In this document: piece after piece, positions 55,471-56,483 of the stretch
Layout of the letters: every line of letters starts with the position of its first letter
How positions within the stretch are numbered: the stretch's first letter is position 1
NCBI RefSeq assembly: GCF_000027125.1
Contig: NC_017626.1
DNA from: Escherichia coli 042
Lineage (GTDB): Bacteria > Pseudomonadota > Gammaproteobacteria > Enterobacterales > Enterobacteriaceae
Reading direction: 5' to 3' (one strand)
DNA: 64,000 nt
Notes under the pieces: model-generated
What the model saw: the letters and a program-made list of their open reading frames with translations, nothing else
Told to the model about the DNA's origin: nothing
Database searches by the model: none
Translations under genes and position numbers: made by a program

Positions 55471-56235
55471 CTAAATATTATCCCAATCTAACGGTTCTTC
55501 TGGTGGCACAAGACTTGTGTTCTCTACAGAAGGGATTTCATTTATACTTTCACTCTTCACTAACCCTTGAGACTTTTTAGCCTGCAATCTTGCGATTAAC
55601 AAATCTATCTCATCTTGGTTATTAACTTCTTGTATAACTGCTTCAATTGACCTGTTTTTATCTTTAAGTATGCTATTGCCACCGCCATTGACGACTATGC
55701 TTTCGGGTTGTTCTTCCATTGCTTCTTTCTTTTTTATAATCTCTGATACAAAGCGAGCACGATCACCATTGAAGACAATAGCAGGGTTTATGAAATACCA
55801 GTTTTTCTCATTGGTTTTAGCAATAATACGTTTTTCGATGAGTTCTTTGATACCTCTGTAAAAGATAGATTCAGACAAAACAAAGTGATCTATCTTTTCC
55901 GCAAGAGACATTGCCTTTTTACAGCTCAGGTAGAAATGATCTTTGCCTATCGCATCCTGATATATTCGTAAAAATATGAAAAACACTTTGTATGCTGTTT
56001 TCGTGAGATCAAAATATGCTTTTATCTGAGAGGTATAGAGTTTAATGAACTCTTCTTTATCGACCTCTTGTGTATGCACGATATTGGCGAAGTAGCTTTT
56101 ACCTGTATCTTTCTTTTCGATAAGTTCTGTGCCTCTTGAAACGGTCAGATTTTTCTTTCGTGTTTCAATCTTTAGCTCTGTCTCAAAGCAAAAAGGATTT
56201 AACCCTAAATCTAAGTCAACGTCTATTTCATTCAT
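55471..56235 (-). CDS. Winged-helix DNA-binding protein, candidate replication initiator (Rep-like)
   Basis: 254-aa ORF with SD agaggt; 21-bp iterons and an AT-rich tract immediately upstream; product is inference. Confidence 0.5.
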   Translation of the reverse strand: MNEIDVDLDLGLNPFCFETELKIETRKKNLTVSRGTELIEKKDTGKSYFANIVHTQEVDKEEFIKLYTSQIKAYFDLTKTAYKVFFIFLRIYQDAIGKDHFYLSCKKAMSLAEKIDHFVLSESIFYRGIKELIEKRIIAKTNEKNWYFINPAIVFNGDRARFVSEIIKKKEAMEEQPESIVVNGGGNSILKDKNRSIEAVIQEVNNQDEIDLLIARLQAKKSQGLVKSESINEIPSVENTSLVPPEEPLDWDNI

Positions 56236-56401
56236 TTCATTATTACCTCTTGTTGTTTTATTTATAATAAATTAAATACCATGCACAAAAAAGATATCAA
56301 GTTTTTTGCATATTTTTTTGCGAAAATATTTTCAAAATCGCAACTATTCCAGTGACGATACTTTAAAGCACTGTCGTTTTTAAGCTAAAAATGACATAGA
56401 A

Positions 56402-56483
56402 ACTGACTGCAAAGTCAGGAAAGCTCACCGTGCAGTCAGGAATACTGACTATAGAGTCAGGAACACTGACTGTACGGTCAGTC
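56402..56483. repeat. Iteron-like array: four tandem 21-bp repeats (TGACT-N5-AGTCAGGAA-like)
   Basis: AGTCAGGA at 56413, 56434 and 56455 and a degenerate GGTCAGTC at 56476, exact 21-bp spacing; each unit holds the inverted pair ACTGACT/AGTCAG. Confidence 0.8.

What the first reader, a model, noticed from the sequence alone, without database searches (positions are those of the whole stretch)
55471..56483. Iteron-type candidate replication origin inside a chromosomal island
Four tandem 21-bp repeats (about two helical turns, with internal ACTGACT/AGTCAG symmetry) lie next to an AT-rich tract and about 165 bp upstream of a 254-aa wHTH-like gene. This is the classic arrangement of an iteron theta-replicon (initiator, iterons, DNA unwinding region). 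Together with int and the relaxase it suggests the excised island could replicate autonomously, like a phage-plasmid or PICI.
Basis: partly seen in the sequence, partly recalled or inferred. Interest (0 to 1): 0.6.

Follow-up and report, generated by a model that had tools for sequence, protein, structure and literature searches.

The report
Twin plasmid-type replication modules in island
The four 21-bp repeats and the 254-aa gene look like a plasmid-type replication initiator with its origin, one of two such modules placed back to back inside a mobilisable E. coli genomic island, which suggests the excised island can copy itself, though nobody has tested this.

Summary
Four phased 21-bp units, each a CTGACT-N4-AGTCAG palindrome, lie at 56403-56481, 167 bp upstream of a 254-aa winged-helix gene. 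Both sit in a ~26-kb low-GC island next to ssrA that carries an integrase, a MobQ relaxase and AlpA.

The protein is not Rep_3/RepA. It is an outlying RepL-superfamily protein. Its closest plasmid relatives (47-63% identity) are the only possible Rep of 2.5-2.9-kb enterobacterial plasmids. Those plasmids have the same layout as the tested pHW126/pIGRK/pIGMS31 replicons: hairpin, conserved region, ~21-bp dyad repeats, promoter, rep.

Across six island lineages in three genera, the half-sites and the conserved region vary as little as codon position 2. The N4 spacers vary like codon position 3.

A second, divergent module lies at 57393-58391. Its 232-aa protein is homologous to the tested initiator RepM, and its repeats match pIGMS31's iterons.

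The most likely function is replication of the excised island, as in SGI1 and PIMEs. This is untested. The only experiment on a sister module, deletion of SEN1990 in ROD21, found no replication phenotype.

The parts
55471..56235 (-). rep-like gene A. It encodes a 254-aa winged-HTH protein, an outlying member of the RepL superfamily of the pEA1/pRHBSTW-00555_10 type. Residues ~12-175 are the conserved core. Residues 176-254 are a C-terminal extension shared with the Rep of plasmid L002.
   Evidence: purifying selection shown by codon positions 1/2/3 variable at 13/9.8/36.6%
56236..56402 (-). Promoter and leader region of gene A (25% G+C). It contains short inverted repeats that could be operators (56372-56396).
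   Evidence: 22-24% of positions variable among island lineages
56403..56481 (.). Array A: four iteron-like units at 21-bp phasing, each a CTGACT-N4-AGTCAG palindrome (starts 56403, 56424, 56445, 56466).
   Evidence: half-sites 4/48 variable, linkers 1/15, N4 spacers 6/16 across six lineages; same positions in Pectobacterium and Yersinia islands
56500..56529 (.). Short hairpin (AAGCCTTATGCCGTAAGGGCT). A hairpin sits at the same position in plasmids L002 and L004.
   Evidence: the predicted fold is weak (z = -0.6)
56530..56586 (.). Conserved-region (CR)-like block. On the minus strand it reads CCTATTAAGTATTATCTCTTACTTCTTGCAAAATTAAATTAAG. It resembles the CR of pIGMS31 (ACTCTCTTACTTTCTTATTG) and of L002 (…TTAATTCTTGCAGAAAAACTCAAAT).
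   Evidence: only 5/57 positions variable across six lineages
56592..56610 (.). GC-rich hairpin GGCGATTTTTATAATCGCC. On the minus strand CGGTTT follows the hairpin and leads into the CR, as in the pHW126-like plasmids.
   Evidence: (z = -3.0)
56716..56756 (.). ssi-like palindrome (ATGAGCTGAAGCTCAT). It resembles the ACAGCTTGCTGT palindrome of L002 and L004.
   Evidence: z = -2.7
56949..57131 (.). Two copies of a long hairpin (CAGCA…GTGATTGT-N-ACAATCAC…TGCTG) at 56949-56990 and 57090-57131. The hairpin is conserved upstream of the right-hand rep gene in all island variants and is a candidate single-strand initiation or accessory site.
   Evidence: (z about -5); the surrounding segment 56725-57156 is also found in many other E. 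coli genomes
57316..57392 (.). CR-like block of module B (CCCTTTTACTATATTAAACTTATTACTATATTAC…). It is spaced from the first repeat as in pIGMS31.
57393..57483 (.). Array B: four units at 22-bp phasing, TTATAG-N4-CTATAA (GGTTATAGGTTCCTATAAC…). This is essentially the iteron of pIGMS31 (GTTATAGATTCCTATAAC).
57693..58391 (+). rep-like gene B, encoding a 232-aa pHW126-family Rep homologue. It is in the same family and the same slot as SEN1990 of ROD21.
   Evidence: (39% identity to RepM, E 2e-17; 33% to pHW126 Rep; 31% to RepR)
35384..37142 (+). Island attachment end: the ssrA tmRNA gene (35384..35746) and a P4-type integrase (35871..37142).
42352..43860 (+). MobQ relaxase of the island.
60281..60514 (-). 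AlpA-like HTH gene, the probable excision factor.

Best explanation
The finding is a replication module of the pHW126-like / RepL-superfamily type, embedded in an ssrA-integrated mobilisable island of the ROD21 (EARL) kind.

The 254-aa protein is the initiator. It probably binds as dimers to the four phased CTGACT-N4-AGTCAG repeats and to sites in its own promoter, where it would repress its own expression. The adjacent conserved region and hairpins (56500-56756) are where the DNA would be opened or nicked and priming would begin. This is by analogy with pIGMS31, where the nick maps just upstream of the CR and both rolling-circle and theta intermediates are seen.

A second, divergent module of the same design uses a different Rep subfamily (232-aa gene plus array B) and shares the 1.46-kb intergenic region.

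The most likely role is to replicate the circular island after Int/AlpA-mediated excision. That would prevent its loss at cell division and raise the copy number before MobQ-dependent mobilisation, as shown for SGI1 and PIMEs.

Shown here: the repeats, the homology, the shared architecture, and the selective constraint. Inferred: protein binding, origin firing, and restriction of replication to the excised state.
For: 1. Closest plasmid relatives. Proteins 47-63% identical sit on 2.5-2.9-kb plasmids whose only other gene is a MobV relaxase or a MobK-like relaxase (annotated as a site-specific integrase). These plasmids have no RNA-type replicon in Rfam.
2. Shared layout. Those plasmids and the window both have rep, then ~150-250 bp, then 20-22-bp dyad repeats, then a CR-like block, then hairpins. 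L002 and L004 share CR and hairpin sequence with pHW126 and pIGRK.
3. Experimental basis in the family. For pIGMS31 and pIGRK, CR plus IT1-4 (plus IR1 in pIGMS31) were mapped as the minimal origin; in pIGMS31 the Rep binds the IT and IR repeats, and in both plasmids the Rep forms dimers and autoregulates.
4. Family membership. The family has 1,110 representatives. 23 of 61 aligned members hit Pfam RepL, and N150-P151 are invariant. hhalign links the family to the pHW126-type Reps with probability 77% and E = 2e-5.
5. Selection. Half-sites are 8% variable, linkers 7% and CR 9%, against 37.5% for the N4 spacers and 36.6% for codon position 3, across E. coli, Pectobacterium and Yersinia islands.
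6. Cognate pairing in the neighbouring slot. Each Rep variant there carries its own four dyad repeats: TTATAG/CTATAA, GTTTCC/GGAAAC, CTATGTTT/AAACATAG.
7. Island content. It has int, AlpA, MobQ and TraD but no full T4SS, the layout of IMEs known to replicate.
Against: 1. No experiment exists on this protein subfamily or on this island.
2. The module is never on a plasmid: 74 places in 73 E. coli genomes are all chromosomal, and no PLSDB plasmid carries array A/CR DNA.
3. In ROD21, deleting SEN1990 did not change island copy number (~1 per chromosome) or attP abundance. I show here that SEN1990 is the right-hand-slot, pHW126-type Rep. That test was done at 3% excision and without a helper plasmid.
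4. The protein itself has no Pfam, NCBIfam or PHROG hit, and BLASTP does not link it to the characterised Reps.
5. The family has no invariant Tyr or His, so a covalent nicking mechanism is not evident.
6. There is no DnaA-box enrichment.
Confidence: 0.6

Rival explanations
1. The protein is a domesticated transcription factor. The 254-aa winged-helix protein only represses or activates transcription, the four palindromes are operators, and the module no longer supports replication.
For: Four phased palindromes upstream of a divergent gene pair are a normal operator layout. The sister protein SEN1990 changed expression of oafB and had no replication phenotype. Rep proteins of this family are also autoregulators. 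The island is always chromosomal.
Against: The array lies 167-246 bp from the ATG, beyond the promoter zone. The 57-bp CR block and the hairpins on the far side of the array, which match origin elements of small plasmids, are as conserved as the half-sites. A pure operator would not need them.
Confidence: 0.2
2. The module acts as an incompatibility or interference device. The chromosomal iterons and Rep titrate or handcuff the Rep of incoming small plasmids of the same kind, protecting the host or island from them rather than replicating the island.
For: Array B matches the iterons of pIGMS31, and those iterons (inc1) expel the plasmid when cloned in trans. Two modules with different specificities sit side by side, and the specificities vary between island variants.
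Against: No plasmid in PLSDB carries array-A-type repeats, so array A has no known target. Interference would not require the CR, the hairpins or an intact rep gene to be conserved. It could be a side effect of a working replicon.
Confidence: 0.1
3. The module is a decaying remnant of a small plasmid that recombined into the island and now has no function.
For: The module resembles whole small plasmids, and the G+C content is low, as in those plasmids.
Against: The gene is intact in all 73 E. coli genomes that carry it. It is 85-98% identical at the protein level across at least eight genera, with codon-position variability typical of purifying selection. The non-coding elements are constrained too.
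Confidence: 0.05
4. The array is part of the island's oriT, and the protein is a relaxosome accessory factor for the MobQ relaxase.
For: Accessory proteins often bind repeats near oriT, and hairpins are present in the intergenic region.
Against: The relaxase gene is 12 kb away. The homologous proteins in tiny plasmids coexist with unrelated relaxases (MobV, MobK-like) and are separated from them. Two members of the wider family have been shown to be replication initiators.
Confidence: 0.03

Closest known systems
pHW126-like plasmid replicons (pHW126, pIGRK, pIGMS31; Rozhon 2010, PMC2831885; Wawrzyniak 2019, PMC6854812; Wawrzyniak 2022, bioRxiv 10.1101/2022.12.05.519187)
   Same: The module order is the same: ssi-like hairpin, conserved region, four ~20-22-bp iteron-like repeats with internal dyad symmetry, promoter, then a winged-HTH rep gene. 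The G+C content is low. The CR-like sequence is shared. The neighbouring 232-aa gene is a true family member, and array B matches the pIGMS31 iterons.
   Different: The 254-aa protein is only a remote homologue (hhalign E = 2e-5, no BLASTP hit). The module is chromosomal, inside an integrative island. It is paired head to head with a second module. The distance from the CR to the ssi-like palindrome is longer.
pEA1-type tiny enterobacterial plasmids (pEA1 NZ_DQ659147.1, pRHBSTW-00555_10, pSTN0717-72-5, pKAM645_10), not experimentally characterised
   Same: Their Rep-like protein is 47-63% identical to the 254-aa protein, and in L002 it includes the same C-terminal extension. Repeats lie ~160-215 bp upstream, with CR and hairpins beyond them.
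   Different: The repeat sequences differ (ACTCTAGAGT, GAGAGAA/TTCTCTC). They have two or three units rather than four. They are free plasmids.
SEN1990 of the Salmonella island ROD21 (Hoppe-Elsholz 2023, PMC10655114)
   Same: It sits in the same island family and the same intergenic locus, and is a winged-HTH protein that RefSeq annotates as RepL. I show it is a pHW126-family Rep homologue with four perfect upstream repeats in the E. coli relative L018.
   Different: It corresponds to the right-hand slot (232-aa gene type), not to the 254-aa gene. The authors concluded that it is not involved in replication and did not describe the repeats. L018 lacks a 254-aa-type gene.
Replicative integrative mobilisable elements: SGI1 (PMC7433901) and PIMEs (bioRxiv 10.64898/2026.01.12.698999)
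   Same: These are islands with int, an AlpA-type regulator, mobilisation genes and a rep gene plus a four-iteron oriV. They replicate only after excision, triggered by a helper plasmid.
   Different: They use unrelated RepA-type initiators and origins with DnaA boxes, and have a single replicon. Here the Reps are RepL/pHW126-type, DnaA boxes are not enriched, and there are two replicons.
Phage lambda O protein and ori-lambda (from established knowledge, not tested here)
   Same: Four phased ~19-bp iterons, each with internal dyad symmetry, bound by dimers of a winged-helix initiator next to an AT-rich region. The 232-aa protein has a weak PHROG hit to 'replication initiation O-like' (E = 0.0017).
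   Different: The lambda origin lies inside the O gene. There is no significant sequence relationship and no phage context here.

Membership tests
pHW126-like REP module | Rep protein homologous to Rep(pHW126), RepR or RepM | tested here: inconclusive
   The 254-aa protein has no BLASTP similarity. The profile-profile match over the wHTH core has probability 77% and E = 2e-5. The neighbouring 232-aa protein meets this feature (E 2e-17 to 2e-14).
pHW126-like REP module | Four ~20-22-bp iteron-like repeats upstream of rep | tested here: met
   Four units at 21-bp phasing, at -247 to -184 from the ATG. The reference plasmids have theirs at -229 to -152.
pHW126-like REP module | Conserved region (CR) next to the repeats, on the side away from rep | tested here: met
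   The block 56530-56586 contains TCTCTTACTTCTTGCAAAA, similar to the pIGMS31 CR (CTCTCTTACTTTCTTATTG) and to L002 (TTCTTGCAGAAAAAC). It is only 9% variable across genera. The similarity was judged by eye and alignment, not with a statistical model.
pHW126-like REP module | ssi-like palindrome beyond the CR | tested here: inconclusive
   Hairpins are present at 56592-56610 and 56726-56741 (z = -3.0 and -2.7) and resemble those of L002, but their spacing differs and their function is unknown.
pHW126-like REP module | The module supports autonomous replication, and the origin is activated by Rep in trans | not testable with these tools
   This needs a suicide-vector or two-plasmid assay.
RepL (Pfam PF05732) | Match to the family profile | tested here: not met
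   The protein itself has no hit even at E <= 10. 23 of 61 aligned relatives match (best 3.6e-11), so it is an outlier of the superfamily rather than a scoring member.
RepL (Pfam PF05732) | Conserved Asn-Pro after the wing (…INP…) | tested here: met
   N150-P151 are invariant in the 61-sequence alignment.
Classic iteron theta replicon (Rep_3/RepA type, e.g. pSC101, R6K, F) | Initiator of the Rep_3/RepA WH1-WH2 family | tested here: not met
   No Pfam or NCBIfam hit. Only 1 of 61 relatives shows a weak Rep3_N hit (E = 0.02).
Classic iteron theta replicon (Rep_3/RepA type, e.g. pSC101, R6K, F) | DnaA boxes at the origin | tested here: not met
   One box with one mismatch in 56236-57692, against a shuffle mean of 2.9.
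Classic iteron theta replicon (Rep_3/RepA type, e.g. pSC101, R6K, F) | AT-rich unwinding element next to the iterons | tested here: inconclusive
   The flanks are 25% and 31% G+C, but no discrete very AT-rich tract or 13-mer repeats were found.
Replicative integrative mobilisable element (SGI1/PIME-like life cycle) | Integrase, excision regulator, relaxase and rep/ori in one island that lacks a full T4SS | tested here: met
   int, AlpA-like gene, MobQ, TraD and only DotA/TraY and TraW homologues.
Replicative integrative mobilisable element (SGI1/PIME-like life cycle) | Copy number rises after excision in a rep-dependent way | not testable with these tools
   The only related data are negative: ROD21 copy number ~1 and no effect of deleting SEN1990.
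   No tblastn hit in 50,697 phage records. There was no significant PHROG hit among the six ORFs scanned around the locus (50.3-58.4 kb). The RefSeq annotation of the near-identical island lists conjugation-type but no phage-type genes.

The most novel reading that the evidence does not exclude
The two divergent modules form a deliberate dual system. Two Rep subfamilies with different iteron specificities share one set of single-strand initiation hairpins. This could give the island two replication modes (rolling-circle and theta). Alternatively, it could let the island both replicate itself and expel resident small pHW126-like plasmids by iteron-based incompatibility, since array B carries the pIGMS31 iterons. 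The modular swapping of Rep-iteron cassettes between island variants would then reflect an arms race with such plasmids.
Probability: 0.15. Interest if true: 0.65.

Novelty: new variant of a known kind. Interest (0 to 1): 0.45.

Why it matters
ROD21-like (EARL) islands occur in Salmonella, pathogenic E. coli, Klebsiella ST258 and Pectobacterium. They excise and transfer, but what happens to them outside the chromosome is unknown.

Their long "non-coding" region can now be read as one or two complete plasmid-type Rep-iteron origins. That gives the field a concrete replication hypothesis that can be tested by cloning. It also reinterprets SEN1990, which was published as "not a replication protein", as a homologue of tested plasmid initiators with its own four iterons.

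The finding extends the poorly understood pHW126/RepL replicon class from tiny cryptic plasmids to chromosomal islands, and it defines a new Rep subfamily with about 1,100 cluster representatives.

It predicts incompatibility between island-bearing strains and pIGMS31-type plasmids. The general idea that mobilisable islands carry replicons is already established, so the advance is incremental rather than conceptual.

Tried and rejected
- Direct family assignment of the 254-aa protein failed. Pfam, NCBIfam, PHROGs and PADLOC gave nothing. The PDB sequence search found only marginal matches (the best was an MCM4 chain at E = 0.012). Foldseek found only generic winged helices.
- Rfam found no RNA replicon or sRNA in the locus or in the small plasmids.
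- I first assumed the 254-aa protein was the pIGMS31 RepM type, because PLSDB types pEA1 as 'Col(IMGS31)'. Rozhon's alignment and the real plasmid sequences showed that RepM matches the 232-aa gene instead.
- I tried to equate SEN1990 with either window gene by residue numbers and pI, and both failed. The primers have no match in the window or in L009. SEN1990 was finally identified as the L011/L018-type allele of the right-hand slot.
- The idea that redundancy with a 254-aa-type gene explains the null SEN1990 phenotype is not supported. The E. coli SEN1990-type island L018 has no such gene. ROD21 itself could not be inspected.
- No attR repeat of the ssrA 3' end was found downstream. The right boundary was set at ~62272 by comparison with L001.
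- The Klebsiella 'plasmid' hit is an island inserted in a 310-kb IncF/HI1B plasmid, not a plasmid using this replicon.
- DnaA boxes and extreme AT tracts are not enriched.
- The recognition helix is conserved among relatives that have different repeats. Specificity may therefore lie in the variable N-terminal part, and no helix-iteron covariation could be shown.
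Full report
**Observation.** The repeats are real. Tandem Repeats Finder reports a 21-bp period with 3.9 copies at 56400-56481. Each unit contains a 16-bp palindrome, CTGACT-N4-AGTCAG, starting at 56403, 56424, 56445 and 56466 with 0, 2, 0 and 1 mismatches. No other site in the 64-kb window has 0 or 1 mismatch. The array begins 167 bp upstream of a 254-aa ORF on the minus strand (55471..56235). The DNA between them is 25% G+C.

**Context.** The window is E. coli chromosome. A tmRNA gene at 35384..35746 is followed by a low-GC island of about 26 kb (37.7% against 45.3% for the window). 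The island carries a P4-type integrase, a TraD-like protein, a MobQ relaxase, a 'SEN1982 family' lipoprotein, H-NS paralogues, TraW and DotA/TraY homologues, an AlpA-like gene and a DUF6387 gene. This is the gene set of the ROD21-like (EARL) islands, here integrated at ssrA. It is a mobilisable island, not a prophage. No phage relatives were found.

**The protein.** It has no hit in Pfam, NCBIfam or PHROGs. By tblastn it has relatives of 47-63% identity on 2.5-2.9-kb enterobacterial plasmids. In those plasmids the only other gene is a MobV relaxase or a MobK-like relaxase (annotated as a site-specific integrase). They have no Rfam-detectable RNA replicon. The relative must therefore be their Rep.
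- More distant plasmid relatives are annotated RepL.
- An exhaustive search finds 1,110 cluster representatives, mostly 180-230 aa, matching residues ~12-175.
- In an alignment of 61 members, 23 hit Pfam RepL (best 3.6e-11) although the query does not. N150-P151, G157 and R159 are invariant.
- AlphaFold2 gives a confident three-stranded winged-HTH core. There is no significant match among solved structures.

**The architecture.** The literature on pHW126, pIGRK and pIGMS31 describes a REP module made of an ssi-like palindrome, a ~20-bp conserved region (CR), four ~20-bp iteron-like repeats, promoter operators and a winged-HTH rep gene. In pIGMS31 the minimal origin is CR + IT1-4 + IR1. In pIGMS31 the Rep binds the repeats, and the nick maps just upstream of the CR. 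In both pIGMS31 and pIGRK the Rep forms dimers and autoregulates. Both rolling-circle and theta intermediates occur.

I fetched the three reference plasmids and compared their upstream regions with the window. Their iterons also have internal dyad symmetry:
- pHW126 and pIGRK have GTTGTC-N6-GTCAAC, four copies at 22-bp phasing.
- pIGMS31 has GTTATAGATTCCTATAAC.

The pEA1-type tiny plasmids share CR and hairpin sequences with them. Next to array A the window has a CR-like block (…TATCTCTTACTTCTTGCAAAATTAAAT…) and hairpins in the corresponding order.

**Selection.** I aligned six island lineages: four from E. coli, one from Pectobacterium and one from Yersinia. The percentage of variable positions in each class was:

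| Element | Variable positions |
|---|---|
| Half-sites | 8% (4/48) |
| Linkers between units | 7% (1/15) |
| N4 spacers | 37.5% (6/16) |
| CR block | 9% (5/57) |
| 18 bp between array and hairpin | 50% (9/18) |
| Codon positions 1 / 2 / 3 | 13% / 9.8% / 36.6% |

The half-sites, the phasing and the CR are therefore constrained as strongly as the protein, while the spacers drift at the neutral rate. The four units sit at identical positions in all lineages. Orthologues of the protein are 85-98% identical across at least eight genera.

**A second module.** Array B (57393-57483) has four TTATAG-N4-CTATAA units at 22-bp phasing, upstream of a divergent 232-aa gene (57693..58391). That protein is homologous to:
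- RepM of pIGMS31 (39% identity over 116 aa, E = 2e-17);
- the Rep of pHW126 (E = 2e-15);
- RepR of pIGRK (E = 2e-14).

Array B is essentially the pIGMS31 iteron. hhalign links the 254-aa family and the pHW126-type family over the winged-helix core (probability 77%, E = 2e-5). So the 1.46-kb intergenic region holds two head-to-head Rep-iteron modules of two related subfamilies. Between them are two copies of a long hairpin (z about -5).

**Generality.** The right-hand slot is variable, and each Rep allele has its own four dyad repeats:
- GTTTCC-N5-GGAAAC in L010 and L016;
- CTATGTTCGAACATAG in Pectobacterium (L011);
- four perfect CCTATGTTTAAACATAG in E. coli L018.

In each case a CR-like block and the same long hairpin precede the repeats. 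This co-variation between Rep and repeats is what cognate initiator-iteron pairs show.

**SEN1990.** The published SEN1990 of ROD21 turns out to be the L011/L018-type allele of this right-hand slot. All seven residues named in the paper match. The pI is 9.2, against the reported 9.03. The qPCR primers and probe encode GILVEHH, HLYINSN and FAKGMSHH, which is the motif found in that protein. SEN1990 is 41% identical to RepM (E = 2e-20).

The authors found ROD21 at about one copy per chromosome. Deleting SEN1990 had no effect on copy number or on attP abundance, at 3% excision and without a helper plasmid. This is the only experimental evidence on any module of this locus, and it is negative. It did not test the 254-aa type. 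L018 has no 254-aa-type gene, so redundancy does not obviously explain the null result.

**Distribution.** Gene A plus array A plus CR occurs intact in 73 of 5,426 complete E. coli genomes. It is always chromosomal and always annotated 'hypothetical protein'. No PLSDB plasmid carries array A/CR DNA. The one apparent plasmid hit is an island inserted into a 310-kb IncF/HI1B plasmid. The island therefore does not persist as a free plasmid. Any replication must be transient or conditional, as in SGI1 and PIMEs, which replicate only after helper-induced excision.

**Interpretation.** The identification as a Rep-iteron module of the pHW126-like / RepL-superfamily kind is well supported (about 0.9). 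That it actually replicates the excised island is an inference (about 0.6). The main rival is a domesticated regulator with operator sites (0.2). Incompatibility against small plasmids is a possible additional or alternative role (0.1).

It is not a classic Rep_3/RepA theta replicon. There is no such domain, DnaA boxes are not enriched, and the repeats are dyad-symmetric. It is not PICI-like either.

The family has no invariant Tyr or His. A covalent rolling-circle nicking mechanism therefore cannot be read from the sequence, which is consistent with the unresolved mechanism in the characterised plasmids.

Noticed in passing
window 57393-58391: This is a second Rep-iteron module. It has four TTATAG-N4-CTATAA units at 22-bp phasing, matching the pIGMS31 iterons, upstream of a divergent 232-aa homologue of the tested initiators RepM, RepR and Rep(pHW126).
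   Followed up: yes
L011 1164-1898 and L018 4001-4735 (compare PMC10655114): SEN1990 of ROD21 was published as a wHTH regulator 'not involved in replication'. It is a pHW126-family Rep homologue occupying the right-hand slot. In E. coli L018 it has four perfect CCTATGTTTAAACATAG repeats and a pIGMS31-like CR upstream, neither of which the paper mentions.
   Followed up: yes
window 56725-57156: This central intergenic segment is conserved on its own at ~78% in many other E. coli genomes, with no annotation. It holds two copies of a long hairpin (56949-56990 and 57090-57131; DNA fold z about -5) that is conserved upstream of the right-hand rep gene in every island variant. It is a candidate ssi/sso site or oriT element.
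   Followed up: partly
window 56874-56891: A single copy of CCTATGTTTGAACATAGC lies here, inside an unannotated 73-aa ORF (56665..56886, minus strand). It is the iteron of the SEN1990/L011-type module. It could be a relic of cassette exchange or a cross-talk site.
   Followed up: no
L009 4738-5286 (E. coli E-1246): In this island variant the right-hand slot holds a 182-aa paralogue of the 254-aa/RepL type (YYFINPDYMFNGDR, pI 9.5) instead of a pHW126-type gene. Rep cassettes are therefore swapped between islands.
   Followed up: partly
window 50325-54609: The island keeps only two type-IVB (IncI-like) transfer genes, a TraW family gene and DotA/TraY. This recalls how SGI1 carries a few T4SS subunits that remodel its helper's apparatus, and it hints at which helper plasmids to try.
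   Followed up: no
window 62272-63873: Similarity to the reference island (L001) ends at ~62272. There the window continues into the C-terminal part of an autotransporter gene (62281..63873, minus strand) instead of glaH. No repeat of the ssrA 3' end of 12 nt or more was found downstream, so the exact attR was not located.
   Followed up: partly
L016 (CP110748.1, 125471-140004): A complete EARL-like island (integrase, AlpA, DUF6387, H-NS, Rep-like gene, MobA/L, TraD) is inserted in a 310-kb IncFIB/IncHI1B Klebsiella plasmid.
   Followed up: partly
window 38836-39882: The island carries what looks like an orphan type II DNA methyltransferase (PADLOC MTase_II, E = 2e-102). No restriction partner is annotated beside its homologue in the near-identical island L001.
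   Followed up: no
L003 (pEA1) versus L013 (pIGMS31): PLSDB types pEA1 as replicon 'Col(IMGS31)' even though its Rep belongs to a different subfamily from pIGMS31's RepM. The typing probe evidently targets shared non-rep DNA, so this replicon type mixes two Rep families.
   Followed up: partly
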